Shown here in pieces: positions 29,702 to 59,660 of a stretch of 64,000 nucleotides of DNA. The position numbers were made by a program, and so were the translations under genes. Source of the stretch: Bacteroidales bacterium (lineage in GTDB: Bacteria; Bacteroidota; Bacteroidia; Bacteroidales; VadinHA17); NCBI GenBank assembly GCA_034522515.1, contig JAXHLF010000017.1, positions 18,971 to 82,970 on the forward strand, read 5' to 3'. The notes under the pieces were generated by a model. That model was not told where the DNA came from. It searched no databases and saw only the letters and a program-made list of their open reading frames with translations. The stretch's first letter is position 1, and each line of letters starts with the position of its first letter.

Positions 29702-29717
29702 CAATAATATTACTGTT

Positions 29718-38398: not shown

Positions 38399-38408
38399 CA
38401 CCCGCATT

Positions 38409-38530
38409 GGTCGGTTGGCCGAGTGGCTAGGCATCGGTCTGCAAAACCGGGGACGGCGGTTCGAACCGAACGAGCGAAGCGAGAGAGCTCGCGAGCGGAA
38501 CGAAGTGAGGCGAGCAATCTGCCACCGGTA
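38409..38530 (+). pseudogene. tRNA-Cys-like gene with a 52-nt insertion in the T-loop and a degenerate 3' end
   Basis: The first 57 nt (38409-38465) match the downstream tRNA-Cys at 56/57, including anticodon GCA. Then come 52 unrelated nt (38466-38517), then tctgccaccggta, which is a weak match to tccgccaccgacc. Confidence 0.7.
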
Positions 38531-38569: not shown

Positions 38570-38640
38570 GGTCGGTTGGCCGAGTGGCTAGGCATCGGTC
38601 TGCAAAACCGGGTACGGCGGTTCGAATCCGCCACCGACCT
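38570..38640 (+). tRNA. tRNA-Cys (anticodon GCA)
   Basis: Hand-folded 71-nt cloverleaf: acceptor ggtcggt/accgacc, anticodon stem tcggt/accgg with loop ctGCAaa, T arm ggcgg-ttcgaat-ccgcc, discriminator U. Confidence 0.9.
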
Positions 38641-38649
38641 CAATTTAAA

Positions 38650-38688: not shown

Positions 38689-39653
38689 TTTGCATAATTG
38701 GCCCATTATCGGCCCAATAACAAGTAAACTGTCTTCAGTTCGTTTTAAATATTTTTATCTATGTACTCTCACCTCAGGAAGTATTGACCACGTGCTGGCA
38801 GATCACCCCGAGTTGCTGATTCGAATCCAGTGAGTCCAACAAAACATATATTAGGATTTCGACGGATTTTAAATTTCCGTAAAACGGACAGTAAAGTAGA
38901 TCATCTTGAAAACTGAGAATATGCTCCTACCCAGGACATTTTTTGGAATCCTTGGATATAAAGTACAAGATATGAGTCAGATATGAGGAATACAATTCAA
39001 CACAACTTAATTACAGCTTAAATGGTCTACCCCATTATAAGTCTTAGTAATATCTCCCATATAGCTTCATTACGTGCTAATGGTAAAGATTAATGCAAAC
39101 TTGTTTTTCATTCTTGTATTTCATTATAATTGTGTGAGATATCCGGGTGAATCCCGGATTAGCCCATAAAGAATAAATCTTATAGCGTCAAGAATTATTG
39201 ACCCTGTAGAATTCACACGTTTCAAGCTTTAGTTTTGTTACCCTTATTGCAGTGTCTCGTCCTAGAAAAACCTTACACATTTGGTTAGTAATCCTGATTT
39301 CACTTTACAATTCCAATTGGTTAATCCTAAATGAGCTTTACAGTACCTGACAATGATAGTTCAATATTATCAAACAAGTATTTATTCTTTCATTTTTTCT
39401 CGTTTAGAATATTGTTTCCATCGCTTTCTTACTAATCCTTCTTGTGTATGAGCTATTTAGGGACGAGACGAAGAAAATATTATCAGGGGGAAGAGAAGAG
39501 GATCCTGTTTTCCGTAAATTCTGATAAAGCAGGATTTAGGAAATTTCAGTTTCAGCCGAATTCTTTTAAAACAGTCCATGCACAACAATGAATACTGTTC
39601 ATTTCCAATATACCGTTAGTGACATATTGGTAAATCCAATACAGTTTTGCTTT

Positions 39654-39693
39654 ATAATTCCCGATAATTCCCGATAATTCCCGATAATTCCCG
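39654..39693. repeat. four perfect 10-bp direct repeats (ataattcccg)
   Basis: Copies at 39654-39663, 39664-39673, 39674-39683 and 39684-39693. They end 56 bp upstream of the first gene of the peptide locus. Confidence 0.9.
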
Positions 39694-39748: not shown

Positions 39749-41392
39749 ATGTTTTTTAGCTCAGGCGGCGATAGTAATGTCATTGAGGTTGTTTATCGGG
39801 CTTTGTCATTCTATAAAGTAAAGGTCAGAAAGGCAACCATCAGCAGATACTTGCAACCTCACCCTGAGTATCCCACCTTGAAGAGTGTATGCGATCTGCT
39901 TAAGAGTATTCATTTGGACTATTATCCCACTAAAAGTTGAAGAGAATGAGCTCTTGGGACTTTCAAAGCCATTTATTGCACATACTAATGAAGGGGGTGG
40001 AAAGATTTTGCTTATTTATAACATAGGGAAACAAAAAATTGTATATGCTGATTCGTGCAGAGGCAGTAAAGTGGTAAGCACTAGAGTTTCTTTGAATTAT
40101 GGAGCGGAGTAGTCATCCTTCTTGAACCAACAGAGAAGTCAGAGAGAAAAAGACTATAAGGAGAACAAGAGAGGAAATCTCTAAAAATGCAAATTGTTCC
40201 CTTTGTTTTTATTCTGTTTCTTTTCACATGTTTATATGGTCTGGTTTTAAACGTAGTAGAAAACGAAACCCTTTCGAGCAAGTTCATAATCCTCGTATTG
40301 ATTAATTTGACGGGGGTTATCATTTCTCTGCTGTTACTCCTTAGTGAACTTGATATTCATAGTACCCTTACTGATAAGTTATGCCACATAAGTACAAATG
40401 TGAATTGTAATGCTGTAACCAGAAGCGGGGCATCGAAAATATTCGGGGCCATTGGCTGGGCAGACATTGGAGTAGCATTTTTCGGTAGTGGACTTTTACT
40501 TCTGTTTTAATTTATCTTATACTGAAGCAATACCCCTCCTTTCCATATTTGCAGTTGCTGCAGTGCCATACCCATTTTTTTCAGTCTTATATCAGGGACT
40601 TAAAGTAAGGAAATGGTGTCCCCTTTGTCTTTCGGTACAAGCATTATTGATTTCAGAATTCATACTATTAGTGAATTCTGTTTCAGTTGAAATGATCACA
40701 ATACGGGCCATTGGAATGACTGTTATTACTTTCGGTATCGTATTGGTTATCACCCTTCTCATTAAGGTCCTTTACAGTTCAAACAAGGAGACTGACAGCC
40801 TTCACCTAAGATTGGCCAAAGTGAAGAGGGATCCGTCATTCTTTTTCACTCAGTTAAAGCGGGGCAGAAAGATAGAGATCCCGGTAAGTAAGCATTCTCT
40901 GATCTTTGGTGAACCAGCAGAGCGAAATAACATTAAGTGTTTTCTAAAGTTTCTACTGCACCTATTGTGCAAAGCTGTACAAGTCAGTTATGGGCTTGAT
41001 TGAGAATAACACGAAAATCAGGATCAGACTAATATTGCGGATCTCCCAGGGATGAATTATCCACACAAATGACAGCTCTTCTCAGCTCCTTGATTGAGAA
41101 TGGAGAAACAAGGTTGATTCCTGGTCTTATTGAACAATGGTATGTTGCCTCTCCAAATCAGCGGAAAGAACTATTAAGTGGAAATCGAACAGTCAAAGAT
41201 AATAATATAATCTCCGAGTTTATTTTTATTAATTCAGAGCTCTTTAAGGCAAATAATATAGTTGGAGTGCCGGCTGTATTTGTAAATGACTATCCTTTAC
41301 CGAAAATATACGATTTGGAAGATCTCAATTCTCTTGCTGAGGAGATTGAGGGCGAAGAAAGTGAAATAAAAGAAGCTATGATTCAAACCTGA
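39749..41392 (+). CDS. C39-like / vitamin K epoxide reductase (VKOR) / thioredoxin-fold (DsbA-like) fusion protein; about 4 frameshifts
   Basis: The fragments tile about 548 codons. The N-domain resembles a C39 peptidase fold but has no Cys before residue 48. TM helices carry the loop cysteines (CHISTNVNC) and the VKOR CxxC (KWCPLCLSV). A second CxxC (SFYCTYCAKLY, alternate frame near 40950) and GVPAVFVNDYPLP belong to a thioredoxin fold. Confidence 0.65.
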
Positions 41393-41575
41393 AGAGAAGG
41401 GCAGAAAGCATTACAGGATTTTGCTGCCGTTGCTCTCTGCCCGGACCTTCCTTAAAAGAAAGGAGGTGAAGTGACAAAGATATTATAATAATGATAATGA
41501 GGGTTCGAGTCCCTGTCATTGAAAGGATATAAATGACGGTTGCGCAATGTCTTTTTAAACTTAATTCTTAATGAA

Positions 41576-41785
41576 ATGAGAAATGTTGATAAATTAAAGA
41601 TCAGTCCTGAAAAGCTCCTAAAGAACGATGAATTGTCGAAATTAAGAGGTGGAGGTACTTGCATTTGTTTCTATTCCAATGGTTCTATTGCAATTACCGG
41701 AGCTGCACAAAATGCGGGAGACTGTAGTGATATGTGCGTTTTTGGAGGAGGTTATTCATATTTCCCGGGGAGTAACGAGACATAG
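41576..41785 (+). CDS. double-glycine-leader precursor peptide (class II bacteriocin-like, 4 Cys)
   Basis: MRNVDKLKISPEKLLKNDELSKLRGG | GTCICFYSNGSIAITGAAQNAGDCSDMCVFGGGYSYFPGSNET. The leader fits the ELxxLxGG consensus. The ATG at 41576 is preferred over the TTG at 41540 used by the ORF track. Confidence 0.75.
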   Translation: MRNVDKLKISPEKLLKNDELSKLRGGGTCICFYSNGSIAITGAAQNAGDCSDMCVFGGGYSYFPGSNET

Positions 41786-41813
41786 TGTTATTGAGTAAAT
41801 TATGTACTGATAT

Positions 41814-41837
41814 AGGCTGGATTAAAGCATTCAGCCT
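41814..41837 (+). terminator. stem-loop after the precursor gene (possible partial terminator/attenuator)
   Basis: aggctg-gattaaagcatt-cagcct, starting 29 nt after the precursor stop. No clear U-run follows. Confidence 0.3.
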
Positions 41838-41912
41838 CTATTAAGAAACATTAAATTAAGATGTCATGCTGAATAAGATCAAATAAAATAACTTCATGAG
41901 GAGATTAAAATA

Positions 41913-43065
41913 ATGAAACAATACTTGTATATGGTTTTCTTTTTACCACTGTTGTCTTGTAACTCCCCGGTTAGCAAGATTACAGAGGTTGATCTTGAAA
42001 ACCTCAATGGTGAAGAGATCACATTATCTGAGATTGCTGATGATATAACCTATGTCCCTCTCGACAATGATTACCCGATGAGTATCTACTTCCAGAGAAT
42101 CGAAATACTCGAAGATACCATATATCTGACTGAGAAAGATATCGGGATGTTTGCGCTGGACATGTCAGGTAAAATGGTAAAAAGGTATGGAAGCAAAGGG
42201 CGAGGACCGGGAGAGTATATGTATGGAAATAAGTTTACAATAGACCGGAAAGGTCAAATTCTCTATCTGCTGGATATGAAGAGCATATTAAAATACTCCC
42301 TGGATGGGACTTATCTGGGGAAAATTTCTCTGGATAAGTATCCTGGGAATTTCAAAGAGTTGAGATTCAAAGATTCTCAGTTAATACTGTTCGAGTATAT
42401 AGCCTTAGGAGAAGCTGTCTATGACTGGATTGTAATGATGACAGCTCCGGTAACCTTGTCAGTGAAAAACTAAATTATATTCCTTCTTTTAAAAGTACAT
42501 TCGGTCCGGGTGGAGGTGTTTATGAATTTGACGAGAGTATTGGCTACTGGAATGGTTATAACGACACAGTTTTTTCTATTGCCGGGGATTTGGGCTACAG
42601 CACCTCATTCCTCTTGGCTCCTTCTGAACTTAGGTGGCCCAGAAATGATATAGAGCCTGCCTTAGTGTCGAAATATATCGGGTTACATCTTATACTGGAG
42701 ACAGAGCGCTTTATTATTTTAAAGTATTTTTTCAAAGAGCAAACCCTCGGATTCATTGATAAGCATATTAAGCGGTCATATAAAGTGAGTTGGCAGCCCG
42801 TGAATCACCTTGATAACAATGGAGGTTTGCCAAATGATCTGGACGGGGGAGTCCCATTCGAACCAAAGCACTATTTTGAGGAAAACGGGGTTGAATACCT
42901 TGTTGGTTTCACGCAGCCGGTTAACATGCTGACACGGATCAGCTCAGGGACTTCTCAAATTCAGCTGCAAAATACCCTGAGAAGAAAGAGGCTCTGATTA
43001 AACTGGCAGAAGAAATTAAGGAAACAGATAATTCTATATTAACTATCGTCAGGCTGAAGAAATAG
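41913..43065 (+). CDS. 6-bladed beta-propeller family lipoprotein, paralog 1; 2 frameshifts
   Basis: Signal and lipobox MVFFLPLLSCNS. TYVPLDNDYPMSIYFQRIEILEDTIYL...RGPGEY is typical of the Bacteroidales 6-bladed beta-propeller lipoprotein family. Frame changes lie near 42435 and 42930. The C-terminus is ...ILTIVRLKK. Confidence 0.6.
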
Positions 43066-43227
43066 AATGTGCGGGCATTTTATTGTAACAGATGACTTGA
43101 TTCATTGGACTACAGAGGATCATATATTCCAATCCGGGATGATTGGCCTCTGTTACTTTCAGGTCTTAAAAAGTGATTTTAAATAATTAGAGACTCCTAT
43201 TGGTAAAATCCACTAATCAACAGCATC

Positions 43228-44371
43228 ATGAAAATCTCTGGTTACTTATTAATAGTATTCTTGATCAGTTCCTGCAAGAGTTCAGATAACGAAGTCATTC
43301 AAATTGATTTAGATAAGACTTCCGGTACTGAAATCACATTAGCCTCAATAGCCGATGAAATATCTTATGTCCCATTGGATAACAATTATCCTATGAGCAT
43401 CTACTTTCAGAGGACCGAGATAATCGATGATATGATTTATCTCAACGAGAAGGATAACGGGATGTTTGCTGTGGATAATTCAGGCAAAATGGTAAGAAGG
43501 TATGGTAACCGGGGTTGTGGACCCGGGGAATATGTTTTAGGCTTCAGATACGCCATAGACAGGGATGGTGGGGTTCTTTACCTGCTTGACAAAAAGAAAA
43601 TCCTAAAGTTTTCATTGGATGGGCCCTACCTTGGGGACATTTCTCTCGAAAAATATCCCGGAGGTTTCAGTGAGATCAGATTCCGGGATTCGGAAATTAT
43701 TTGTATTCGAGTATATTCTTATGGAGAGGCTGTATATGATTGGATAGTGATTTGATACCGTTGGAAACCTAATAAAGGAAAAGTTTAACTATGTGCCGCC
43801 ATTCAAAACTAACTATAGTTATGGAGAGGGTGTGTTTGAATATGGAGACAAGATCTATTACTGGAACAGCACTAATGACACAATTTTTTCGATTTCTCAG
43901 GATTTGAATTGCAGGGCATCCTATCTCTTTGCACCTTCGGATCACAGATTGCAAGTATGATCATACTATGGGACTAAATGATTTTAATAAATCTGTTACG
44001 CTTTCAACGGTTCTTGAGACGGATTCATTTATAATACTAAGATATTTCTATGAAAAATCCATAATGCTACTTATTGACAAGAGTACAGGGAAATTATTCA
44101 AAGCCACCTGGAATATTAATGAGGGTGGATTAATCAATGATTTGGACGGGGGAGCATCGTTTGAGCCCAAACACTATTTTAAGAAAGAGGGTCGGGAGTA
44201 TTTGGTAGGTTACACGCAGGCAACAGACATAATTTCACGGGGTCCACTCCGATGATTTTAAGAACTACTACTCCAAAAAACCCAAATGGGAAGGAGGCTT
44301 TATACAGTTTAGCCGGAAATTTGAAAGAAACAGATAATACATTGCTAACTATAGTCAGGCTTAAGGATTAA
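43228..44371 (+). CDS. 6-bladed beta-propeller family lipoprotein, paralog 2; 2-3 frameshifts
   Basis: Lipobox FLISSCKS. By eye it is roughly 60-65% identical to paralog 1 over the N-terminal 170 aa. The C-terminus is ...LLTIVRLKD. Its stop lies 2 nt before the ABC transporter ATG. Confidence 0.6.
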
Positions 44372-44373
44372 TC

Positions 44374-46632
44374 ATGTCTGTTTTCCCCTTTTTCAAACAA
44401 CTTGATTCTATGGATTGTGGGCCATCATGTCTTAAAATGATAGCTAAACAATATGGTAAGAATTATTCTTTACAGTCTCTTCGTTCAAGATCATTTGTTA
44501 CCCGTTCCGGAGTCTCAATGCTTGGAATCAGTAATGCTGCCGAAGATATAGGTTTTCGTACATTAGGTTACCCGCTTTCCTGGGAACAACTTCGTGATGA
44601 GGTTCCTCTACCTTGCATTGCCCACTGGAACCAACGTCATTTTGTTGTAATCTATGGTATTAAGAAGCAAAGGAGTGTTCCATATATCTTTAACAGAACT
44701 CCCCGGGAAGGATTGAAACCAAACCGGAGACAGTAGATATCTGATTTATGTCGCTGACCCTGCCTCCGGCCTTCTTAAATACACCGAGAAGGAATTCCTC
44801 AGATGCTGGTCTAGCAACCAAAAAGAAGGTAAACAGGAAGGCACTGTTCTGCTTCTTGAACCTACCCCCGAATTCTATAATAAAGAAGATGAGGGCAGAG
44901 TGAACCTGAAGTTCTTATACCTTCTGAACTATTTAAAACCATATAGAAAGTACATTTTTCAGCTTATACTTGGTTTGGTCACTGCAAGTATCATAAGCCT
45001 CATCTTTCCTTTCCTTACCCAATCCCTTGTAGATACAGGTATTGGCAACAGTAACCTGGCCTTTGTCGTAATGGTCCTTATTGCTCAGCTGATTTTGACC
45101 CTCAGCCAGACAGCTAATGGATTGCTCAGGAACTGGATAAACCTGCATGTGACAAGCAGGGTTAGCATTTCTCTTATCTCCGACTTTCTTATTAAACTTA
45201 TGAAGCTCCCCATTGCATTTTTCGATGTGAAGCTCATAGGTGACATCATGCAACGCATAGGCGATCACAACCGTATAAGATCATTTCTTACAGATTCATT
45301 GATAAGTATCATCTTTGCCGTTATTACCCTTGTTATGTACACTGTCATAATGGCTTCATATAACCTGGGTATTTTAGCTGTATTTTTAATTGGAAGTCTC
45401 TTCTACGTGGGTTGGGTCCTTATTTTTTTAAAACGACGCAGGGAACTTGACTATAAACGATTTCAGCAAAGCGCCGCCAACCAGAGCAATATTGTTCAAC
45501 TTGTGACAGGCATGCAGGAGATAAAGCTCAATGGTTGCGAGAAACAAAAACGGTGGGAATGGGAAAGAATACAAATTAAGCTTTTTAAAGTAAGCCTTAA
45601 GAGCATGATGCTCAACCAAAATCAGCAACTTGGAGCTGTATTTATTAACCAGGCAAAAGACATCCTGATTTCATTTCTGTCGGCACATGCTGTGATTAAA
45701 GGTGAGATGACTCTGGGTATGATGATGGCTGTCCAATACATCATAGGTCAGTTAAATGCTCCGATACAACAATTTATAGGATTTACCCAGGCTGCACAGG
45801 ATGCACGGATCAGCCTGGAGCGTCTGGGTGAAATCCATAACAGAGATGATGAGGAGAAACCGGACGATGGTCAGATAAATGATATCCCGGCAGATAAGGA
45901 TACTAGAAATCAGGAATCTTTGCTACCAATATGAAGGCCCGGATTCAGAAAAGGTTCTCGATAATATCTCATTTATAATCCCTGCAAAAAAAATAACTGC
46001 AATTGTGGGCGTAAGCGGGAGTGGAAAAACGACCCTTATCGAACTACTTAGGCTTCTACAACCCGATAAAGGGAGATGTTTTAATCGGTGGAACTGCTTT
46101 AAACCGTTTTAGCCAGAAAGAATGGCGTCGGTGTTGTGGTGCAGTGATGCAAGAGGGTTTCATCTTTTCTGATCCAATTGCCGGGAACATTGGCCTTATC
46201 GATGAAATGCCCGATAAACCAGAAATAGACAGAGCAACTGAAACGGCAAGCATAAAGGAGTTTGTTGAGAGTTTGCCGCTTGGGTATAATACCAGGATTG
46301 GGAATGATGGTCATGGCCTAAGCACAGGACAGAAGCAGAGAATTCTGATTGCCAGGGCAATCTATAAAGAGCCCGACTTTATATTTCTGGATGAAGCAAC
46401 AAACTCTCTCGATGCGCGGAATGAAAAAGCCATTATGGAGAACCTATCAATATTTTTTAAAGGCAGGACTGTCATCGTAGTAGCTCACAGATTAAGCACG
46501 GTTAAGAACGCCGATAAGATTATAGTTCTTGAAAAAGGGAGGCTTGTTGAGGAAGGTACACATAGAGAGCTTGTTGAAGCGAGAGGTGCATATTACAATC
46601 TGGTAAAGGATCAATTGGAGCTGGGAAGTTGA
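44374..46632 (+). CDS. peptidase-C39-domain ABC transporter (bacteriocin cleavage/export); about 4 frameshifts
   Basis: C39 catalytic motifs QLDSMDCGPSCL and HWNQRHFVVIYG. Six-TM ABC membrane domain at 44900..45934. The NBD has Walker A GVSGSGKTT, signature LSTGQKQR and Walker B IFLDEATNSLD. Confidence 0.85.
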
Positions 46633-46725
46633 AGGAAGCTCTGAAAGGCTGATTTAGAGCCAGGAAAGATAACGGCCGGGTATAACTTAAGATATTGCTG
46701 AGTCTATCTGGAAAAGGAGCGCCGA

Positions 46726-48018
46726 ATGGCTGAAATAAACAAACAAGAGATTCAGAGCCAGGAGCTGCAGGAGGTGATGGCCGGGATACCCGGAAGCTTT
46801 CTCAGGTGGGGCTTATTTCTGTTTTTTGCATTACTGGTAGCCATAATAGCAATTAGCTGGTTTATAAACTCTGCTACTATTGTGTCTGCACCAGTTGTTA
46901 TTACCACTCAGAATCCTCCTGCTCCTTTGGTCGCCAAATCAGGAGGCAAAATTGCATCATTATGTGTCCGCAACCAGGAGAATGCTCTAAGAAACAATCT
47001 ATTGCACTTATTGAGAATTCTGCTGATTATTTCAGATGTGAAGACACTTACTTCATTTATTGATAAAATACAAAGAAGACCAGACTGGAACCAGACTGTA
47101 GAAATATATGATTTACCCTTAGGTCTTTCACTGGGCGAAATTCAAAACAGTTATGCAAGATTCTATGTATTATGGCAGACATTCCGGGAGTATTTGATTC
47201 AGGCATACATATCCCAGAAGATTGATTTGCTTGAAGAGCAGATAAAAAAGCAGGAAGAATATACAATTGAGTTATTGAATCAAAAAGAATTAGCCGGACA
47301 GGAGCTTCAACTGGTAGCTAACGGTTTCTTTCGGGATTCGTATTATATGTCACGAGCACATATTCAATTTCAATAAATGAGTTTGAGAAATCAAAACTAA
47401 CTCTTCTTCAGAGACAAGGCTCGTTTAGTTCACTTCAAGGTACAATTAAAAGCAATGAATTGGCAACGCTGAGACTTCAGGAAGCCCGACTTGATCTTCA
47501 GATAAAGCTTGAGAATGAAATACAGCAGTTCAGGTTGGATCTCGATGAAGCATTCCAGCTGTTGCAGGTGTCTGTAAATCAATGGAAAGAAAAGTACCTT
47601 ATAGAGAGCCCAATAAATGGAAAGATCACATTTACCACTTACTGGAATGAAAACCAGGTGATAAAGGCAGGGGAAATACTTGCGACTGTTGTTCCCCGGG
47701 ATGAGAGTCAGATCATTGCCAGGTCAGTTGTACCAAATGCCGGATTCGGAAGGGTGAAAGTCGGGCAGGAAGTAAATATTAAACTTACGGAATTCCCACA
47801 TATGGAGTTTGGCGTATTGAAAGGCAAAGTAAAATCTTTGTCTCTTAGTACCGGTGGAGGGAGGTTATATTGCAGAGATAGATTTAATAAATGGAATGAG
47901 AACCACTTACAATCGTGAAATAGGTTTTATCCAGGAAATGAATGGTACTGCAGAGATCATCACTGAAGAAAGCAGGTTGATCTACAAGTTTATTAATCCT
48001 TTAAAGGCTTCTCCGTAA
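46726..48018 (+). CDS. HlyD-family secretion accessory protein; about 3 frameshifts
   Basis: N-terminal TM (WGLFLFFALLVAIIAI), long coiled-coil segments and a C-terminal beta domain (GFGRVKVGQEVNIKL..., ...GTAEIITEESRLIYKFINPL). It ends at 48018. Confidence 0.75.
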
Positions 48019-48204: not shown

Positions 48205-49545
48205 ATGAATAGTTCTTATGTTACCAGAAAAGAGATTGCCAGGGACCTGAGCATTGATCCAAAACTCTCAGAAAAAAAAAAGCTGCAAAAAGCGGGTATC
48301 ATGTTAGATAGCGGTATGATCCCGGCTGAAAAGGTCAAAGAAATAATGCTCCGTCTGCAGGTGAATCCGGAAAATCAGGATGATACTGAGCCAAATGAAC
48401 AGCCTGATGAAAATTTTAATAAATTTGATATATCATCCATTGATAGTCAAGAGTGTAATAATCCAGTTACCAGATGCAAAAAGAGGGCATTCATTCCACG
48501 GCTTTTTGCAGTAACTCTTGGTTGTGCATTATTCATCTTCGTGTCGTGCAAATCAAGACAGACAGATAACACTGAGGAACTGGCAAGAAGAACATCGCGG
48601 CCCGAAGCCGTGATGGTTGAAACAGTCAGACTGGAACCGTCAACATTCTATCACGAGATCATCAGCAACAGCAAGGCATTCTCACTCAGAAAGGCTGTCG
48701 TCCCGTTTAAGGTGAACGGAATTATCGAAGAGCTGTATGTGAAAAACGGCCAGAGGGTAAAAGCCGGCCAGCTGCTGGCCGTCATAGAAGACTTCGAGTA
48801 CAAAACCAGCCTCACCAGCGCCAGACAGGCCCTGACAAAGGCCGACACTAAAGCAGGGTGACCTCCTCAGTAAGTACATGACGGCAGATACAAATAACCT
48901 TGCCCCTGCCAAAATCAGGACCTCCAGGATCAGGAGCGGACTGGATGATGCACTGATAGCACTGGAGAGGGCAGAATACAACTTTAACAACACACGCATC
49001 TATTCCCCCCTTGACGGGGTGATTGCCAACCTCGAGGCAACCCGCCTGAATCCCAGCCAGAACTACAATAGCCTCTGCACGGTGATTGCCAACGATGTAA
49101 TGTATATAGAGTTCCCGGTGATGGAGTCGGAATACGGGTTCATCAACGCCGGAATGCCCGTGGGTATAATTCCCTTTGTTGATGACAGCCTTCTCATTCA
49201 GGGGAAATAGTGGAGATCAATCCGCAGGTTGATGAGGGGGGCATGATACGTGTCAGGGCAGAATTAAGGAACAATGGGCGCCTCATTGACGGCATGAATG
49301 TCAAGGTCCTTATCAGGAAGCCTGAATACAACAGACTGGTCATTCCAAAAGAAGCCCTGGTGATCAGGCAGGGGAAAGATGTGGTCTTCATCAGGCAGGA
49401 TTCCCTGGCTATTTGGAAGTATGTCACAATTGAGTCTGAGAACAGCTCTATGGTCTCCGTGAGCGAGGGCCTAACCCCCGGCGACCTTGTCATTGTAAGA
49501 GGCAACACCAACCTCGCACATGAAACAAAGGTGAAAGAGGAATGA
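48205..49545 (+). CDS. RND efflux periplasmic adaptor (MFP) with an odd AT-rich N-terminal extension; 2 frameshifts
   Basis: Lipoprotein signal RLFAVTLGCALFIFVSC at residues ~98-114, biotinyl-lipoyl motif (VKNGQRVKAGQLLAVIE) and beta-barrel/MP domains in 48878..49210 and 49210..49545. The first ~90 codons are hydrophilic and AT-rich. Confidence 0.7.
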
Positions 49546-52500
49546 GTTCCCCGAGTGAACAGTCGCCACGCTTTTCGCCTTTCAGCCTGAACATCGTCTT
49601 TGTGGTGTTCATCATCACCGGGGCAGCAATAATGCCTCTGCTGTCGCTGCAGTTGAACCCCCACCCGCTACCTTCCTTCACTGACAATAAGCTATACATG
49701 GCCTGACGCCGCCGCCAGGGTGGTTGAGCATCAGGTCACCTCGGTTGTCGAGGTGCTGATAAGCACCCTCCCCGGGGTCAGTCGCATCGCCATCCACCAC
49801 AAACAATGAGAGCGGTGAGATAACCATGGAGTTCGACAGGAATACCGATCTCCGCACTAAACGGTTCGAGGTGGCATCACTCATCCGCGACGCCCACTCA
49901 CGCCCTGCCGAGAGGGGTCTATCCGGTTATACAGATGAATATGCCGTCGAATACAAGCGGCACGGTCATACTGAGCTACCAGGTGACAGGCAATGAGGCT
50001 CCTTCCTATATCTTCAGTATTGCAGAGGAGCTGCTGAAGCCGGCGATAGCATCCGTTGACGGCGTCTACAGCGTGGATATCTATGGCGCCACACCCCGTG
50101 CCTGGGAGCTGATATATGATCAGAAGGTCCTCTCTTCAACAGGGGTGACCCCCGGCCGGATACGTGATGCAATAAGAGCATATCTCTCTGTCCGCGAGGC
50201 TGGCGGAGGAGTGGATAACCTTCTCTCATCGGGAATGAAAAGGACTTATCTGACCATGGTCGGCCACAGGACCGATACGGTCAGGTGGGAGGATATCCCA
50301 ATCACAGCCGCGAACGGCAGGGTGCTGATGCTCTCTGATCTTGTCACAGTGAAGCTAAAGGATGAGAGACCCCGCAGTTACTATCGCATCAACGGCCTCA
50401 ACACAATTACAATGGTGATAAGCGCCGGAAGAAACGTCAATAATATCCGGGTTGCAGAGGAGGTTAAAGATGCAGTTGAGAGGATGAAGAGCAGGATACC
50501 CCCCGGCCAAGACTTGATACTGTCGCTTGACAATACCGGCTTCATCCGTGAAGAGATATCGAGAAATGTTTCAGGGCGGCGCTGTCGGTCATACTGCTGC
50601 TGGTCTTCGCTCTGCTTGTGAGCCGTGACCTAAGATACATGCTTATACTGTTCATTAGTATGGTGGCAACCATCTTCATCGCTTTCATCTTCTATTGGCT
50701 GTTCAGGCTTGAGATACACCTCTATTCCATGGCGGGGATAGCCGTGTCATTTGGCATGATCATCAGCAATATTATAGTGATGACTGATCACATCAAATAC
50801 CATCATAACCGAAAGGTTGGCATCTCTCTGCTGGCAGCTACCCTGACCACCGTGGGAGCGCTTGTGGTGATCTTCTTCCTTGATGAGGCCTCGCGCGGCA
50901 CGCTGGCCGACTTCGCGGCGGTGGTGATCATTAACCTGATGGTTTCACTGCTGGTGGCACTTTTCTTCATCCCCTCACTGGCACAATCGATCAGCTTTGC
51001 CGGGAAGAGAGCCACGGCAAATTTTCGTGGTAACCTTTTCGCCGGGAAGAGAACCGCGGCAAATATCCGGCGTAAGCGCTTCGCTGTGCGCCTGACGAGG
51101 TTTTATGAGAAAGCCATCAGGTCATTTATCAGGTACAGGAAGGTATATATCGCTGCGGCGGTGCTGCTGTTCGGGCTGCCGCTGTTCTGGCTTCCGGATT
51201 CACTGCCTGTTGAAAAGATCAGGACGACTGCCGCCCCTGAGCCTGAGCTTACCCGCTGGCAGCAGCTGTACAATAAGACCCTCGGCAGCAGAAAGTATGT
51301 TTCAGATATCAAACCCATTGTCAACAAGGTTACCGGAGGCACACTCAGGCTCTTCAGTGACCGGGTAAAGAGCAGTAATTATTATTACTTTCCGGGGTTC
51401 CGACGATGTTGAACGGACACAGCTCAGTGTAAGCATAGGCCTCAGCGAAGAGGGGCTGACGCTTGAAGACATGAATGAGGTATGTCTGGGTCTTGAAAAT
51501 ATGATTGCAGCCTAGCAGCGAGGTGGACCGTTTTACAACCAGGGTCAAGCTCGCCCTCCTCGGCATCCCTGACCGTCACATTCCGTCCGGAGCATGACCG
51601 CACAATATTCCCGTTCATCCTGAAGATGAGGATCAGAAGACTACATGATGGGCATCGGCAGTTATCACGTCCAGGTTTACGGGGTGGGTAAAGCCTTCAG
51701 CAACCAGGTCTACAGTGACTACCTGAGGGGCTCGTATTCAATCGTTCTGAAAGGGTATAATTTCGATATTCTAAGCGGCTACGCCGAAGACCTCAAGGAG
51801 CGGCTCATCTCAAGCGCGAAGGGAAGAATAAAGGAAGTGTATGTACTGGGAGGAGAAGAACGCTGGTCAGTAAAGAAACAATACAGGAACATTGTCACTG
51901 CTGACAGGGAGTCGGTAACCCTGGCCGGGAGCGATATGTACAGCCTGTATGAACATACCCGGAGCCTCTCGCGGAACATCCAGGATGGCGGGCAAGTCTA
52001 CATGGGAGGCTTCCTTGCCCCGATGACCCTGAGATCAGCTTACGCAGATAGTTATGAGATGTGGGACATATACAATGAACCAATGATTACAGGATCGAAG
52101 GGTATGTTGAAGCTAAAGGACCTGCTGAGCATGACCAGGGAGATAACGGATAATTCAATCAGCCGCGAGGACCAGCAGTACATCATAACTGTGACATATG
52201 ATTTCATCGGGAACTATGGAGCTGGCCAGGATTATCAGGGACCGTAACATTGAAGAGACGGCGGCACTTCTGCCGCTGGGCTATTCGGTACGATCCAGTT
52301 CCTACACTTATTCATGGTTCACGCAGAAGAACAACTACCCGTTGCTGTTGCTTGTCATAGCGATCATCTATCTGGTCTGTGCTGTTTTACTCGAGTCACT
52401 TCGTCAGCCGTTCATTGTGCTCGGGCTGATACCATTCTCTTTTATCGGGGTCTTCATTACTTTTTCGCTGTTTAATATCCCGGCGGATGAGGGGGTGTTT

Positions 52501-52938
52501 GCAGCGATGATCCTCCTGTGCGGGCTGGCTGTCAACTCGGCGCTTTACATCCTTGACGATTACAACAGGCTGAAGCGGTCAGGGAGGCGCCTTCCGGCGG
52601 TGAGGATGTACCTGAAGGCCTTCAACGGGAAGATCATTCCGGTGATTCTTACGATCCTGTCTACCATTGTAGGTCTTCTGCCGTTCCTCCTTACAGGCAG
52701 GGATGAGCGGTTCTGGTTCGCGCTGGCAGCAGGAGCCATCGGCGGGCTGATTTTCAGCATGGTTGGGCTGCTTGTTTTTCAGCCGATGATGCTGAGGAGG
52801 GAACAAATATTACTTCCTGGAACGGTAAGGCCCTCTGATGATTCTGACGGTTCCGGCCAGGCTGGGCTCTCGGGCATTCCGGGCAACACAGAACCTCAGT
52901 ACCCTGATAAACCTGATAACACCGTTAGCCATGGTTAG
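49542..52938 (+). CDS. RND efflux permease 1 (AcrB/MdtB-like); about 6 frameshifts
   Basis: The ATG overlaps the MFP stop (ATGA at 49542-49545). The fragments 49935..50621, 50618..51412, 51645..52247 and 52198..52938 plus gaps tile about 1130 codons with RND TM and porter-domain character. Confidence 0.7.
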
Positions 52939-55900
52939 ATTCCTTGTACAGCGGCCCGTGGCCGTGATAATGAGTTTCCTCGCAGTGATTGTGTTGGGTA
53001 TCGCTGCCTCGGGGAGGCTTCCCGTATCACTGATGCCTGACATTGATATCCCCGAGATCACGGTGGCTGTCGCGCGCCCTGACATCAGCTCGAGGGAGAT
53101 AGAGAGCAGCGTGGTGAGCGTTCTCCGCAGGAGCCTGATGCAGGTGGAGGGTGTTGATGACATCCGGTCGGAATCGCGCAACGGCAGCGCCATAATCAGG
53201 ATGAAATTCGCCTTTGGCAATGACATCGACCTGGCATTCATGGAGGTCAATGAGAAGATCGATGCTGCCATGAATCTCCTTCCCCGTGATCTTGACCGCC
53301 CGAGGGTGATAAAGGCAAGCGCCACTGACATACCTGTATTCATGCTGAACATCACCCTGGCAGACAGGGCCGCTGACCCTGCCGCCTTCGCCGACCTGAG
53401 CGACTTCGCGGGAAATATAATCCGCAAGAGGATAGAACAGCTGCCCGAGGTGGCCATGGCTGACATCACCGGCCAGGTCAGCAGGGAGATTGTTATCAGG
53501 CCTGACGAGCGCAGGATGCAGAGCCTCGGAATCACTGCCGAAGATATTATCAACGCCGTGAGCATGAACAATGTCAATGTCAGCAGCATCATGGTCAGGG
53601 ATGGCAAGTATCTCTATAACCTTGAGTTCGACTCAAACCTGAAGGGTGTGGATGATATTCGCAGCATATGGCTGAAAAAGGATGGCAAGCTACTGAAGAT
53701 AAAGGATATAGCTGTTGTTGACCTGAGGATCCGGCGCGCCGCAGGCGCCTCTTACTCTGATAATAGCCAGGCGGTGGTGCTGGCCATCATAAAGGAGGCC
53801 TCTGCACGGATGGAGAACCTCGAGGAGAAGATGGACGAGATGGTTAGCCAGTTCCGCACCGATTACCCGCAGATGGAGTTTCAGATCTCGCAGGACCAGA
53901 CACGTCTCCTTGATTACTCCCTGATGAACCTGAGACAGAGCCTTATCTCCGGCGGCCTGCTGGCGTTCTTTATTATGTTTTTCTTCCTTAAAGATGCCCG
54001 TTCACCCCTGATAATAGGCATCAGCATACCAACGACGCTGGTAATCAGCCTGCTCTTTTTCTACCTCGTGGGGCTCTCATTAAACGTCATCTCACTTGCC
54101 GGTCTGATCCTTGGCATAGGCATGATGATCGATAACTCTATTGTGATCATAGAGAATATCACACAGTGGACCGACAGGGGGGAGAAGCTCATCAATGCAT
54201 GTGTGAAGGGCACCAATGAGGTGATAACGCCTCTTATCTCGTCAGTGCTGACCACCTGTGCCGTGTTTGTGCCGCTGATCTTTCTGAGCGGCACTGCCGG
54301 AGCTCTGTTTTATGATCAGGCCATTGCAATCATCATCGGCCAGGGAGTATCACTGCTGGTAGGGATCATGCTTCTGCCGACTGTTTATCACCTGATCTAT
54401 CGAAGCGGGAGGGAGGGCGTGCTGACCCGTTTCGTAAAACGAATCAGCCTTAAGAACCTCTGAGGAAATTATGAAGGAGGGATGAATTTCTTCTTCAGGC
54501 ACCGGAGGAGGGTGGTGGCTCTTTTCGCGGTGACAATCGGGGTAATACTCCTCTTCTCTTCTATCCACCATGAGGAAGGAATTCCGGCCACATAGTTCAG
54601 GATGAGATGATAGTGATGATCGACTGGAATGAGAACATTGACCTGCAGGAGAATTCGGCACGGATACAGGCCCTCGTTGATAAGCTCGGAGGAGAAGTAC
54701 GGACCGACCAACAGCTTCGTGGGTGAGCAGCAGTTTATTTTCACGCGCAAGTATGATCAGCCCTATTCATTGCGAAGATATATATCAGGGCAGCCGATTA
54801 TGGAGCGGTGGATGAGATCAGGGAGTTGCTGACGGCTTACCTTCCCCCGCGGTTCCCCGAGGCAGTGATGACTGTCAGGCCGCAGGAAAACATCTTTGAA
54901 AAGATTTTTGCTGCTTCGGAGACACCCCTTGTGGTTGAGGTGGCGCTGGCCACGGAGAAGGCTGTGCCGCCAGGGTGGAGAGGATGATGCAGATCAACGG
55001 ACTGCTGGCAGAGCGGTGGCCTGAGGCAGGTATAATGGCGCCGCAACTGGAGGAGAAGATCGAGATCAGACTTGACCCGGTGAGGATGCTGTTGTATGAT
55101 ATTGATCCCAACACGGTCTATCCGGCCATCAGGAGCGCGCTGAACCGCAATGAGATAGGAGAGCTGCGGTCGTCACACCAGATCCTCCCTGTTGTTATGG
55201 CGGGCAATGAGACGCCCATAGGTGAGCATATGGCAACCGGCTCTGTGCTGAACAGGCAGGGGGCGCCGGTTCCCGTCAGTGAGATATGCGATGTCAGGCG
55301 GATCCGTTACTATAAGGCCATCATGGGTAGCAAGGCGTCAGAGTATGTACCTGTTGAGATGAATGTATCGACGAACCGACCGGGGGAGCTGACAGCTGAG
55401 ATCGAAGAGGTTTTGTCGGCTGTGCCGGATCTCTCGCTCTCATTCAGCGGAACGCTGATAACGGGCCAGCGGCTCTTCCGTGAGCTGGCGCTGGTGCTGC
55501 TTGTCTCGCTGGTGCTTCTCTACTTCATTCTTGCCGCTCAGTTTGAGTCGCTCACCCAGCCCCTGATAGTCCTGCTGGAGATCCCCATAGACATTGCCGG
55601 GGCGCTTTTCCTGGTATGGTTATGGGGAGGAACAATAAACATAATGACAATGATAGGGATCATAGTGATGTCAGGTGTCATCATCAACGACTCCATTCTA
55701 AAGGTAGATACGATAAACAACCTCCGCAAGTCAGGGATGGGGCTAAAGGAAGCGATTTACCTCGGCGGGTCAAGAAGGTTGAAGCCCATCATTATGGTTG
55801 CTTTGGCATCGCTTTTTTCGACTCTTCCGATGCTGGTTGGCTCGGGCCTGGGGAACCAGTTGCAGCGTCCTATGGCGCTGGCGCTGATAGGAGGCATGAC

Positions 55901-55979
55901 CCTCGGCACATTTGTCAGTCTCTACTTCATTCCGCTGGCGTACTGGTATATCTACAGGAGAAGGGGGGAGAGAGCATGA
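52931..55979 (+). CDS. RND efflux permease 2 (AcrB/MdtC-like); 2-3 frameshifts
   Basis: MVRFLVQRPVAVIMSFLAVIVLGIAASGRLPVSLMPDIDIPEITV is a canonical RND N-terminus. 52838..54463 and 54975..55979 tile about 1016 codons. There is an 8-bp overlap with permease 1. Confidence 0.8.
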
Positions 55980-56305
55980 CTCGCGTTGGGGAAGGTGAAT
56001 TTGCATGGCTGTACTTTTTTCAGATAATTAATTTATAGCGCAACATCAAAATTGGAGAGCCTGTGAAGATTTTTGTGTAAACGAGGAGTCCCTCACTGCC
56101 AGCCTTTATCCCATCCTCCTGAACAAGGTAGATGTTTGAGTCGGTTGTTGAGCCCAATAGAATAAGCCCGCAGAGGTCATTTAAACCACTCTACGGGCAT
56201 TTCAGTGAAATAGGATGAACAGAGTCTCCGTTGGGGAGCAGTCCTACCTGCATAACGACAGAAGGGAAATCTCAGCTACTTACCACCTTGATATCGGTTT
56301 TAAAA

Positions 56306-56776: not shown

Positions 56777-56787
56777 AATTAATTGAT

Positions 56788-57108: not shown

Positions 57109-57188
57109 GATTATTTAATATTATGTTTAACTCTGTTATTTATCTCAATTTGAACTCCTGAAACTTCCAGGATAAGGCATCCATGACA

Positions 57189-57878: not shown

Positions 57879-57900
57879 TTTATAGGGTAGGTATTGTATT

Positions 57901-59395: not shown

Positions 59396-59660
59396 TTTCG
59401 ATCGTATTTGTTTTACGACCCGAAAGATTTGTGGATACACCGTCTTCTTTAACATGGTCTGAACCGGTTAAAAAATAATTCCGGTATTCTTTTCTGCGTT
59501 ATCGAGAAATGTATCTATATCATTTTCAGCAGTTGCGAGGTGCATAGGATTGTGAAGATATTTGCTTGCCCTAACCATCATTTCATAACGGGTTTTATTT
59601 TTTCTGTTACTGCCACAATCACCGGTTCTGTTGGCCTTAATGAGGAAATACTTGAATTGA

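What the first reader, a model, noticed from the sequence alone, without database searches (positions are those of the whole stretch)
39749..48018. Candidate system: double-glycine peptide locus with a dedicated C39-like/VKOR/thioredoxin disulfide maturase and two beta-propeller lipoproteins next to a C39-ABC/HlyD exporter
Six co-directional AT-rich genes make up the locus. (1) A ~548-codon fusion of a Cys-less C39-like domain, a VKOR membrane domain (CPLC) and a DsbA-like thioredoxin domain (CTYC). (2) A 69-aa precursor with a textbook GG leader and a 43-aa core with 4 Cys. (3, 4) Two paralogous 6-bladed beta-propeller lipoproteins. (5) A C39-peptidase ABC exporter with an intact Cys/His dyad. 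(6) A HlyD partner. Export and cleavage are standard class II bacteriocin logic. As far as I recall, Bacteroidales peptide-toxin loci of the bacteroidetocin type also contain thiol-oxidoreductase genes, but I cannot verify that here. Two things are not explained by the standard model. First, the oxidoreductase carries its own leader-binding-like (C39-like) domain. Second, there is a duplicated propeller lipoprotein of unknown function between precursor and exporter, and no recognisable small immunity protein or regulator. The locus rides on a tRNA-Cys island.
Basis: partly seen in the sequence, partly recalled or inferred. Interest (0 to 1): 0.75.

Follow-up and report, generated by a model that had tools for sequence, protein, structure and literature searches.

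The report
Leader-guided disulfide maturase bacteriocin-like locus
This is a Bacteroidales gene cluster for a secreted cysteine-rich peptide whose disulfide-forming membrane enzyme carries its own inactive leader-peptide-binding domain; it belongs to a very large, apparently undescribed family in which each peptide gene is paired with a lipoprotein of unknown role.

Summary
Window 39749-48018 (+) encodes six co-directional genes: a C39-like/VKOR/DsbA-like fusion, a 69-aa double-glycine precursor (4 Cys), two DUF5128 propeller lipoproteins, a C39-ABC exporter and a HlyD adaptor.

Five of the six genes are broken, by at least 18 frame changes and one TAA. Flanking RND genes carry the same damage (2.8-2.9 indels per kb), and gene 1 has dN/dS 0.21. 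This is most likely sequence noise, not decay.

The fusion is a large uncurated family: 3313 clusters at 50% identity. Six redox Cys and the cis-Pro are essentially invariant, and the C39 Cys and His are always missing.

In 51 of 63 related loci a GG-leader, Cys-rich peptide gene follows directly. It is followed in turn by a propeller or a TlpA-like gene, then the exporter.

New here: the fusion has six TM helices, so the C39-like and thioredoxin domains lie on the same side. K+R counts (14.1 vs 1.3, 142 of 142) put that side in the cytoplasm.

Best model: a leader-guided, quinone-driven oxidase acts before export. The propellers are probably cognate binders or immunity proteins. It is a new variant of bacteroidetocin- and sublancin-type loci. 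Nothing here is tested experimentally.

The parts
39749..41392 (+). Gene 1: fusion of a C39-like domain (no catalytic Cys or His), one extra TM helix, a VKOR core (loop Cys212/Cys220, C290-P-L-C293), TM5 and a DsbA-like thioredoxin domain (C403-T-Y-C406, cis-Pro507). It is 546 codons after correction. In the window it is broken by 8 small indels and one TAA at codon 399.
41576..41785 (+). Precursor peptide of 69 aa: a 26-aa double-glycine leader and a 43-aa core with 4 Cys (CxC...CxxxC). The reading frame is unbroken.
41913..43065 (+). Propeller lipoprotein 1 (DUF5128, six-bladed NHL-like). It is full length against homologs, with at least 2 frame changes.
43228..44371 (+). Propeller lipoprotein 2, a paralog of lipoprotein 1. 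In its aligned segments it is 53-86% identical at the protein level to the single propeller of L001/L004. It has at least 3 frame changes.
44374..46632 (+). Peptidase-containing ABC exporter (PCAT): a C39 domain with Cys and His present, ABC_membrane and ABC_tran. It has 3 frame-breaking indels.
46726..48018 (+). HlyD-family membrane-fusion protein, about 430 aa. One search lists 5 frame-breaking indels against L088.
48205..48450 (+). 81-aa HTH-like ORF, a candidate regulator. It is conserved at this position in L088/L089. In the window a frameshift reads it through into the RND adaptor gene.
39487..39588 (+). Remnant (last 33 codons) of an S26 signal-peptidase-like gene. The gene is whole upstream of the fusion gene in L088/L089/L090. 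It marks a deleted left part of the island.
39654..39693 (.). 10-nt tandem repeat ATAATTCCCG x4 in the upstream region of gene 1. The copy number differs from L004. Its role is unknown.
38570..38641 (+). tRNA-Cys(GCA) at the left edge of the low-GC stretch. A truncated 5' copy lies at 38408-38465.

Best explanation
The locus makes and exports a small disulfide-bonded peptide. The steps are given with their status.

1. The 69-aa precursor carries a canonical double-glycine leader (shown in the sequence).

2. The fusion protein is a dedicated maturase.
- Its N-terminal domain is a protease-dead copy of the leader-binding C39 domain of the exporter. It is inferred to dock the leader.
- Its DsbA-like CxxC domain is inferred to oxidise the four core Cys to two disulfides.
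- Electrons are inferred to pass to the VKOR loop cysteines, then to the VKOR CxxC, then to menaquinone. This follows the established relay of bacterial VKOR-thioredoxin fusions.

3. The protein has six TM helices, one more than a canonical VKOR-Trx. The C39-like and thioredoxin domains therefore sit on the same side of the membrane. The positive-inside rule places that side, together with all six redox cysteines, in the cytoplasm. This is predicted, not shown. Oxidation would then act on the leader-bearing precursor before export, as a leader-dependent RiPP enzyme does.

4. The C39-ABC exporter cleaves after GG. Together with the HlyD adaptor and an outer-membrane channel encoded elsewhere, it exports the peptide (inferred by homology).

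5. The two propeller lipoproteins are extracytoplasmic partners specific for the peptide. They most likely bind it and give self-protection (immunity). This is inference from gene pairing only.

The frameshifts in the window are most likely sequencing or assembly errors, so the locus is probably intact in the organism.
For: Family and redox site:
- P0001 shows three Pfam domains above threshold.
- A profile of the family hits PCAT1, bacterial and vertebrate VKOR, and DsbA/ScsC/BdbD structures.
- In 142 representatives (median pairwise identity 32%), the four VKOR Cys and Cys406 are invariant. Cys403 and the cis-Pro are each present in 141 of 142.

Dead C39 domain:
- The position of the PCAT1 catalytic Cys is mostly Asn and never Cys among the residues listed. 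The position of the catalytic His is K, Q, N, D or S among the residues listed.
- The Pfam match starts only after the Cys motif, at profile positions 22-132.

Link to GG peptides:
- In 51 of 63 loci with at least 500 bp downstream, a GG-leader ORF with at least 2 Cys lies directly after the fusion gene.
- The pattern matches 58 of 122 small ORFs there, 31 of 571 elsewhere, and about 0.4% of small ORFs inside genes.
- Leaders are nearly identical within a locus, while cores are hypervariable with 4-9 Cys.
- A PCAT lies downstream in 14 of 18 long loci.

Topology:
- Hydropathy and AF2 (pLDDT 83) both give six helices.
- The extra helix aligns with TM1 of PCAT1.
- K+R per loop is 4.3 / 0.5 / 4.5 / 0.3 / 1.9 / 0.5 / 3.4. 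That sums to 14.1 on the domain side and 1.3 on the other, in 142 of 142 sequences.
- Synechococcus VKOR, whose orientation I recall as known from its crystal structure, has its K/R in the opposite loops.

Propellers:
- Lipobox-like motifs occur in at least 27 of 34.
- They form 1:1 tandem cassettes with peptides: six pairs in L036, others in L003, L013, L014 and L019.
- Some loci have surplus propellers without peptides: the window, L003 and L088.
- The AF2 model (pLDDT 88) is closest to BF0058 (4raa). After that come binding propellers: NHL domains, BamB and BtuG.

Noise rather than decay:
- Frame-breaking indels occur at 2.8-2.9 per kb in the flanking RND genes. The locus genes show 1.35 (PCAT), 3.9 (HlyD) and about 4.9 (gene 1) per kb.
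- All genes are full length and colinear with intact homologs.
- Gene 1 has dN/dS 0.21.
Against: - No experiment exists for any member of this family.
- The orientation rests on charge statistics and domain logic only. All characterised bacterial VKOR and DsbA-like domains work outside the cytoplasm, and the cytoplasm is reducing.
- Leader binding by the C39-like domain is inferred from homology alone.
- The immunity role has no direct support. Peptide and propeller similarity correlate only within loci (rho 0.58, n=21) and not between loci.
- The propellers have conserved polar motifs (GxGPGE, NDT, NDLDGG) that could equally mark an active site.
- Bacteroidetocin producers are reported to lack immunity (PMC6671954).
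- In a sister group of loci the partner gene is a TlpA-like thioredoxin instead of a propeller.
- No outer-membrane channel gene is in the locus.
Confidence: 0.55

Rival explanations
1. Same pathway but canonical orientation. The VKOR and thioredoxin domains face the periplasm, as in all characterised bacterial VKOR/DsbA systems. The peptide is oxidised after or during export. The N-terminal C39-like domain is then also periplasmic, or it only tethers the enzyme to the exporter.
For: - The VKOR and DsbA-like parts are homologous to extracytoplasmic enzymes.
- The bacteroidetocin paper assumes extracytoplasmic oxidation because Bacteroides lack general Dsb machinery (PMC6671954).
- TlpA-like and other CxxC lipoproteins occur in related loci, so periplasmic redox chemistry is part of some of them.
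Against: - It would leave the three 'cytoplasmic' loops with 1.3 K+R in total and put 14.1 K+R outside, in 142 of 142 sequences.
- It needs translocation of a charged domain of about 145 aa without a signal peptide.
- The leader is removed on the cytoplasmic side by the exporter, so a periplasmic leader-binding domain would have no ligand.
- A HlyD-type adaptor suggests secretion that bypasses the periplasm.
Confidence: 0.25
2. The propellers are not immunity proteins. They could be enzymes or assembly factors acting on the exported peptide (a further modification, folding or presentation on the cell surface or vesicles). Alternatively, the peptide-propeller pairs could be a signal/receptor or adhesion module rather than a toxin/antidote pair.
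For: - Invariant polar residues and motifs are found in 39 propellers.
- The same propeller families pair with a second kind of Cys-rich peptide that uses a signal anchor and an S26 peptidase. The partnership is therefore independent of the export route.
- The structural neighbours include BtuG, a surface ligand-capture lipoprotein.
- No antibacterial activity has been shown for any of these peptides.
Against: - A general enzyme would be expected once per locus, like the fusion and the exporter. Instead, the propellers occur once per peptide, with extra orphan copies.
- No enzyme is listed ahead of BF0058 and the NHL binding domains in the fold matches.
- No signalling domain or partner is attached.
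Confidence: 0.3
3. The locus in this genome is a dead relic: true pseudogenes on a decaying island.
For: - There are at least 18 frame changes and a nonsense codon in 8.3 kb.
- Visible ORF breaks are denser in the two AT-rich stretches than in the GC-rich flanks.
- The left part of the island is deleted, leaving an S26 gene remnant.
Against: - Flanking RND adaptor and pump genes are 92-99% identical in protein to an intact genome (adaptor). They carry the same kind of lesions at 2.8-2.9 per kb.
- There are no large deletions; every gene is full length.
- dN/dS is 0.21.
- The lesions are 1-2-base indels, many in short runs.
Confidence: 0.12

Closest known systems
Bacteroidetocin (proposed class IIf) loci of Bacteroidales (Coyne et al. 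2019, PMC6671954)
   Same: - The phylum is the same.
- The peptide has a GG leader, a core of about 42 aa and four Cys.
- A locus-encoded thiol oxidoreductase is needed for activity.
- A C39-ABC exporter is present.
- There is no classical small immunity gene.
   Different: - Those loci are described as four genes, with a separate 5-TM protein and a separate oxidoreductase, and no HlyD or propeller is mentioned.
- The leader there is 15 aa, against 26 aa here.
- Here the oxidoreductase is one 546-aa protein with a C39-like domain.
- I could not obtain bacteroidetocin sequences, so homology of the peptides or enzymes was not tested.
- The nine database homologs of the window peptide are all unnamed.
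Sublancin/glycocin loci of Firmicutes (sunA-sunT-bdbA-sunS-bdbB; recalled from memory, not read here)
   Same: - The peptide has a GG leader and two disulfides.
- A C39-ABC exporter is present.
- The locus carries its own quinone-linked oxidase and a thioredoxin-like protein.
- Related Bacteroidota loci add GT-A/GT4 glycosyltransferases.
   Different: - The oxidase there is DsbB-like (BdbB) and separate from the thioredoxin-like BdbA.
- Both act outside the cytoplasm.
- There is no C39-like domain and no propellers.
- The window locus has no glycosyltransferase.
Bacterial VKOR-thioredoxin fusion (Synechococcus, PDB 3kp9/4nv6)
   Same: - It has a four-helix VKOR core with loop Cys pair and CxxC, a fifth helix and a fused Trx-like domain.
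- A profile match was found.
   Different: - This family has an added N-terminal C39-like domain plus one TM helix.
- The loop charge pattern is reversed.
- The Trx part is DsbA/ScsC-like.
C39-like domain (CLD) of HlyB-type RTX exporters, and the peptidase domain of PCAT1 (PDB 4ry2; the CLD role is recalled from memory)
   Same: - It has the C39 fold without a catalytic Cys.
- In HlyB this domain binds the substrate rather than cutting it.
- The profile hits PCAT1 at E 4e-9, including TM1.
   Different: Here the dead domain is attached to a redox enzyme, not to a transporter.
BF0058 (PDB 4raa), the closest solved structure to the propeller model, and Pfam DUF5128/DUF4934/TolB_like propeller lipoproteins of Bacteroidales
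   Same: - The propellers match Pfam DUF5128 above threshold.
- The AF2 model is structurally closest to BF0058 (4raa, TM 0.68-0.72).
- NCBI names homologs '6-bladed beta-propeller'.
   Different: - No function is known for these families.
- No paper in the searchable library mentions DUF5128.
- I did not test whether BF0058 itself belongs to DUF5128.

Membership tests
Double-glycine (class II / RiPP-type) peptide with PCAT export | N-terminal leader ending in GG, with hydrophobic residues at -4, -7 and -12 and an acidic residue at -8 | tested here: met
   The leader ...LLKNDELSKLRGG has L-4, L-7, E-8 and L-12.
Double-glycine (class II / RiPP-type) peptide with PCAT export | ABC exporter with an N-terminal C39 peptidase that has its catalytic Cys and His | tested here: met
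   Peptidase_C39 matches at E 8e-28. DSMDCGPSCL and QRHFVV are present. The reading frame needs three corrections.
Double-glycine (class II / RiPP-type) peptide with PCAT export | Antibacterial activity of the mature peptide, and a cognate immunity function | not testable with these tools
The propellers are only candidates.
Bacteroidetocin family (PMC6671954) | Peptide homologous to bacteroidetocins A-D (15-aa leader, mature peptide of 42-53 aa) | not tested
   No bacteroidetocin sequences are in the held text or supplements. The leader length differs (26 aa).
Bacteroidetocin family (PMC6671954) | Four-gene layout: a 5-TM protein, the peptide, a separate thiol oxidoreductase and a PCAT | tested here: not met
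   Here the layout is one fused C39-like/VKOR/Trx protein, plus propellers and HlyD.
VKOR family (Pfam PF07884) | Membrane core with a loop Cys pair and a CxxC at the start of TM4; Pfam gathering score reached | tested here: met
   The score is 50.4 bits against a threshold of 27.5. Cys212, Cys220, Cys290 and Cys293 are invariant in 142 of 142.
VKOR family (Pfam PF07884) | Redox centres facing the extracytoplasmic side (canonical bacterial VKOR) | tested here: inconclusive
   Charge bias predicts the opposite orientation. No experimental test is available.
Peptidase C39 (active protease) | Catalytic Cys and His | tested here: not met
   The Cys position is mostly Asn. The His position is K, Q, N, D or S. 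Neither a Cys nor a His appears among the residues listed for 63 + 142 sequences. It is therefore a C39-like domain.
DsbA-like thioredoxin fold (Pfam Thioredoxin_4) | CxxC, cis-Pro and an inserted helical domain | tested here: met
   CTYC and Pro507 are conserved. The fold match to ScsC/BdbD/DsbA gives TM 0.65-0.74.
DUF5128 six-bladed propeller lipoproteins | Pfam gathering score, propeller fold and a lipoprotein signal | tested here: met
   Scores are 72.8 and 63.1 bits against a threshold of 22.9. The AF2 model has pLDDT 88 and matches 4raa. Lipoboxes are present.
tRNA-linked genomic island | Integrase and direct repeats of the tRNA 3' end at the far border | tested here: not met
   No integrase ORF was found, and no tRNA-derived repeat lies at the right border. 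Only the GC shift and the adjacency to the tRNA support it.

The most novel reading that the evidence does not exclude
The C39-like/VKOR/thioredoxin fusions are a natural, widespread class of cytoplasm-facing ('inverted') quinone-dependent disulfide oxidases. They would be recruited to their substrates by a protease-dead leader-binding domain. Disulfide formation would then be a leader-dependent, pre-export modification of ribosomal peptides in Bacteroidota. In addition, the DUF5128/TolB-like propeller lipoproteins would be a new kind of peptide-specific immunity or capture protein, one that pairs with Cys-rich peptides whatever their export route.
Probability: 0.35. Interest if true: 0.85.

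Novelty: new variant of a known kind. Interest (0 to 1): 0.7.

Why it matters
Peptide toxins of Bacteroidales shape gut and environmental communities, yet how they acquire disulfides in a phylum without general Dsb machinery is unresolved.

This family gives a concrete and testable answer: one enzyme that combines substrate recognition (a dead C39 domain) with a VKOR-thioredoxin relay.

If the predicted orientation holds, it would be a bacterial example of enzyme-catalysed disulfide formation in the cytoplasm, directed by a leader peptide. That would be of interest for RiPP biology and for making disulfide-rich peptides in cells.

The family is large (3313 clusters at 50% identity). It sits next to hundreds of hypervariable Cys-rich peptides, which makes it a handle for genome mining.

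The peptide-lipoprotein cassettes also attach a first functional context to the DUF5128/TolB_like propellers, which are common in Bacteroidales and have no known role.

Tried and rejected
1. Bacteroidetocin sequences. I looked in the main text and supplements of PMC6671954 and PMC11195462 and found none held. Direct homology to bacteroidetocins therefore stays untested.

2. Literature searches. 'DUF5128' gave 0 papers. 'VKOR + peptidase C39 + thioredoxin' gave 0. 'vitamin K epoxide reductase + C39 + Bacteroid + bacteriocin' gave 0. 'glycocin + vitamin K epoxide reductase' gave 0. 'VKOR + inverted topology + cytoplasm + disulfide' gave 0. IIBacFinder (PMC12648112) and the Bacteroidales RiPP mining paper (PMC10352776) do not mention VKOR, thioredoxin or propellers.

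3. The genome-contig scan was run with a single protein and returned only two loci. The alignment-based metagenome scan was the productive one.

4. A mirror-tree-type test of peptide against propeller similarity was not decisive. Correlation appears within loci only, as expected from tandem duplication. There is none between loci, because the cores cannot be aligned. A first version of the script timed out.

5. NCBIfam has no model for the fusion, the propellers or the peptides. The only result is a weak leader-level similarity to TIGR04149 (E 0.004, below cut-off). The signal-anchored peptides of L088 do not match Pfam NVEALA or any other family.

6. The pseudogene reading was rejected as the main explanation after comparison with L088.

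7. A site-specific tRNA island was not supported: there is no integrase and no tRNA 3' repeat.

8. No TolC-like gene was found just downstream. The ORFs at 52829-55976 belong to a second RND pump.


Full report
**Observation**

ORF listing shows six co-directional gene-sized units between 39749 and 48018 on the + strand. Each of them, apart from the small peptide gene, is split into 3-6 overlapping ORF pieces.

Pfam scans of the pieces gave these matches:
- VKOR and a weak Peptidase_C39 match in gene 1
- DUF5128 in both lipoprotein genes
- Peptidase_C39 (E 8e-28), ABC_membrane and ABC_tran in the exporter
- HlyD_3 in the last gene

GC falls from about 0.52 to 0.35-0.44 between a tRNA-Cys gene (38570-38641) and about 48.9 kb.

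**Intact relatives and the state of the window copy**

A stitched gene 1 found intact proteins of 544-546 aa. The best is P0001, 93% identical to the stitch. P0001 passes the Pfam gathering thresholds for three domains: Peptidase_C39 (19-129), VKOR (181-306) and Thioredoxin_4 (382-516).

Gene 1 was aligned to a 95%-identical intact copy (L004). The window copy has eight 1-2-base indels and one TTA>TAA. Its substitutions give dN/dS 0.21.

All six window genes are full length and colinear with intact homologs. In total there are at least 18 frame changes.

The decisive control is L088. This is an NCBI genome contig of 399 kb with the same right-hand synteny: HlyD, an 81-aa ORF, an RND adaptor, then an RND pump. 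Against it, frame-breaking indels occur at these rates:
- RND adaptor: 2.8 per kb
- RND pump: 2.9 per kb
- Exporter: 1.35 per kb
- HlyD gene: 3.9 per kb

The RND genes lie outside the AT-rich locus. The adaptor is 92-99% identical in protein to the L088 copy. The damage is therefore window-wide. It is best read as sequencing or assembly noise, not as decay of this locus.

**The fusion enzyme**

Three alignments were analysed: 17, 63 and 142 family members. The last set consists of representatives with a median pairwise identity of 32%.
- The four VKOR cysteines and Cys406 are invariant: the loop pair Cys212/Cys220 and C290-P-x-C293.
- Cys403 and the cis-Pro507 are each present in 141 of 142.
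- A family profile matches the PCAT1 peptidase domain with its first TM helix (E about 4e-9). It also matches Synechococcus and vertebrate VKOR, and DsbA/ScsC/BdbD-type proteins.
- Foldseek on an AF2 model (pLDDT 83) agrees.
- In the profile alignment the catalytic Cys of PCAT1 corresponds to Asn. The catalytic His corresponds to Lys, Gln, Asn, Asp or Ser. Neither a Cys nor a His appears among the residues listed at those columns.

**Topology**

Hydropathy and the AF2 model both give six TM helices. The first helix (149-171) aligns with TM1 of PCAT1. The second aligns with TM1 of VKOR.

An even number of helices separates the C39-like domain from the thioredoxin domain. The two domains must therefore lie on the same side of the membrane.

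K+R counts per loop in the 142 representatives are:

| Loop | K+R |
|---|---|
| before helix a | 4.3 |
| a-b | 0.5 |
| b-c (holds the loop Cys pair) | 4.5 |
| c-d | 0.3 |
| d-e (just before CPLC) | 1.9 |
| e-f | 0.5 |
| after helix f | 3.4 |

This sums to 14.1 on the domain side and 1.3 on the other side, in 142 of 142 sequences (the same pattern appears).

Synechococcus VKOR shows the opposite pattern. Its TM2-3 loop (PLVKRWRWP) and TM4-5 loop (GHRWLDGGK) are the positive ones. I recall its periplasmic orientation as known from the crystal structure.

By the positive-inside rule, the C39-like domain, all redox cysteines and the thioredoxin domain face the cytoplasm. This also fits the biology. 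The leader exists only before the exporter cuts it on the cytoplasmic side. An exporter with a HlyD-type adaptor is expected to bypass the periplasm.

From memory, not read here:
- Inverted VKOR homologs have been proposed in hyperthermophilic archaea, and engineered inversions work in E. coli (Hatahet and Ruddock 2013).
- The PCAT1 cavity was described as large enough for small folded peptides (Lin et al. 2015).

The orientation remains a prediction.

**Conserved neighbourhood**

A metagenome scan with the family alignment found 397 relatives, of which 80 loci were kept. An exhaustive profile search found 3313 clusters (50% identity) at E <= 1e-30. The best 150 are nearly all full length.

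- In 51 of 63 loci with at least 500 bp downstream, the next ORF is a GG-leader peptide with at least 2 Cys.
- As a control, the search pattern hits 58 of 122 small ORFs in that position. It hits 31 of 571 elsewhere, and about 0.4% of small ORFs inside genes.
- About 70 distinct peptides were read. Leaders are nearly identical within a locus, and cores are hypervariable with 4-9 Cys.
- The window leader has the canonical L-4, L-7, E-8 and L-12.
- A PCAT lies downstream in 14 of 18 long loci. In 9 of these it is directly followed by a 380-470-aa ORF of HlyD size. HlyD_3 was the most frequent Pfam family among the downstream ORFs scanned (13 of 73).

RefSeq calls the fusion 'vitamin K epoxide reductase family protein' or 'thioredoxin domain-containing protein'. 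NCBIfam has no model for it.

Some relatives also carry GT2/GT4 glycosyltransferases and LanC-like genes. Examples are Parabacteroides distasonis NZ_OY725766 and a Spirosoma plasmid. These recall the sublancin/glycocin loci of Firmicutes.

**The lipoprotein partner**

After the peptide gene comes one of two kinds of gene:
- a DUF5128 propeller, in 14 loci;
- some other gene. I scanned 20 ORFs lying downstream of the fusion gene, most of them directly after the peptide gene. Fifteen are TlpA-like (AhpC-TSA/Thioredoxin_8, often with DUF4369).

Peptide and propeller genes form tandem cassettes. There are six pairs in L036 and two in L013, L014 and L019. L003 has three peptides with four propellers. 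The window cassette (one peptide, two propellers) matches the third cassette of L003.

In L001 and L004 the peptide differs and only one propeller is present. The recombination break lies exactly at the start of the peptide gene.

Further points on the propellers:
- Most have lipoboxes.
- NCBI names homologs '6-bladed beta-propeller'.
- An AF2 model (pLDDT 88) is closest to BF0058 (4raa). After that come NHL binding domains, BamB and BtuG, with no enzyme ahead of these.
- L088 carries a second kind of cassette upstream. It consists of 81-83-aa peptides with a hydrophobic N-terminal anchor and a Cys-rich tail, followed by DUF5128/TolB_like propellers. An S26 signal peptidase and a small CxxC lipoprotein accompany them.

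The propellers thus go with Cys-rich secreted peptides whatever the export route. They occur once per peptide, and surplus copies also exist.

I read this as peptide-specific binding, most likely immunity. The analogy is the bacteriocin-immunity gene order and orphan immunity genes. This step is inference only. Conserved polar motifs (GxGPGE, NDT, NDLDGG) keep an enzymatic role open.

**Surroundings**

- 39487-39588 is the remnant of the last 33 codons of the S26 peptidase gene, which precedes the fusion gene in L088-L090. The left part of the island is therefore missing here.
- 48205-48450 is an 81-aa HTH-like ORF.
- In L089, L004, L006 and L007, a copy of this ORF plus the first 108 codons of the RND adaptor also lies upstream of the fusion gene. 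The module is thus bracketed by a direct repeat.
- No integrase, no tRNA-derived repeat and no TolC-like gene were found.

**Comparison and novelty**

The closest characterised system is the bacteroidetocin locus. It has a GG peptide with four Cys, a required thiol oxidoreductase, a 5-TM protein and a PCAT, and it shows no immunity (PMC6671954). The sublancin/glycocin loci are the functional analogue in Firmicutes.

This locus works like those systems but differs in several ways:
- The oxidoreductase is a single C39-like/VKOR/thioredoxin protein with one extra TM helix and a reversed charge pattern.
- A HlyD adaptor is present.
- The locus has per-peptide lipoprotein partners.

Searches of the held literature found no paper on this fusion or on DUF5128.

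I rate it a new variant of a known kind. The mechanistic prediction, leader-guided pre-export disulfide formation on the cytoplasmic side, would be a real surprise if confirmed.

Noticed in passing
window 1-64000 (examples: 36137/36801, 28211-31727, 49600-53000): Genes all over the window are split by frameshifts. Against an intact relative, the flanking RND genes have 2.8-2.9 frame-breaking indels per kb. The assembly appears to be error-prone.
   Followed up: yes
window 38408-38465: A truncated 5' copy (58 nt, 98% identical) of the tRNA-Cys gene lies 161 nt upstream of the intact copy. It lacks the 3' half of the T arm and the acceptor end. ARAGORN does not call it.
   Followed up: partly
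window 39654-39693: A perfect 10-nt tandem repeat, ATAATTCCCG x4, lies about 60 nt upstream of the fusion gene. L004 has one unit fewer. It could be an operator or a slippage-prone site.
   Followed up: no
window 39487-39588; L088 8996-9823: A remnant of the 3' end of an S26 signal-peptidase-like gene. The gene is whole in relatives, so the upstream part of the island is deleted in the window.
   Followed up: yes
window 48205-48450; L088 18900-19145: An 81-aa HTH-like ORF lies between the HlyD gene and the RND adaptor gene. It is conserved in relatives. In the window a frameshift fuses it to the adaptor ORF.
   Followed up: partly
L089 3983-6095 and 15255-16000; L004 962-2995: A second copy of the HTH ORF plus the first 108 codons of the RND adaptor lies upstream of the fusion gene. 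A direct repeat therefore brackets the fusion-to-HlyD module. This suggests insertion by recombination or a tandem or circular intermediate.
   Followed up: partly
L088 2330-8267: A second cassette type. It consists of 81-83-aa peptides with an N-terminal hydrophobic anchor, '...ANAQ' and a Cys-rich tail, each followed by DUF5128/TolB_like propellers. An S26 peptidase and a 176-aa CxxC lipoprotein lie next to them.
   Followed up: partly
L086 (P. distasonis NZ_OY725766), L087 (Spirosoma NZ_CP089543), L092 (P. distasonis NZ_OY725771): RefSeq records with the same fusion, next to GG peptides, glycosyltransferases, a LanC-like gene, a DUF4369/TlpA-like protein or a 6-bladed propeller. In L092 the fusion is annotated as two genes (C39 domain protein + thioredoxin domain protein).
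   Followed up: partly
L005 (contig labelled Tissierellaceae): This contig carries the fusion, three GG Cys-rich peptides, TlpA-like proteins and a CarboxypepD_reg/TonB-type receptor. These look Bacteroidota-like, so the bin label may be wrong.
   Followed up: no
window 56000-62000: A second low-GC (0.39-0.42), heavily fragmented stretch on the - strand, with an HTH_17 (excisionase-like) ORF at 59042-59467. It may be another mobile element.
   Followed up: no
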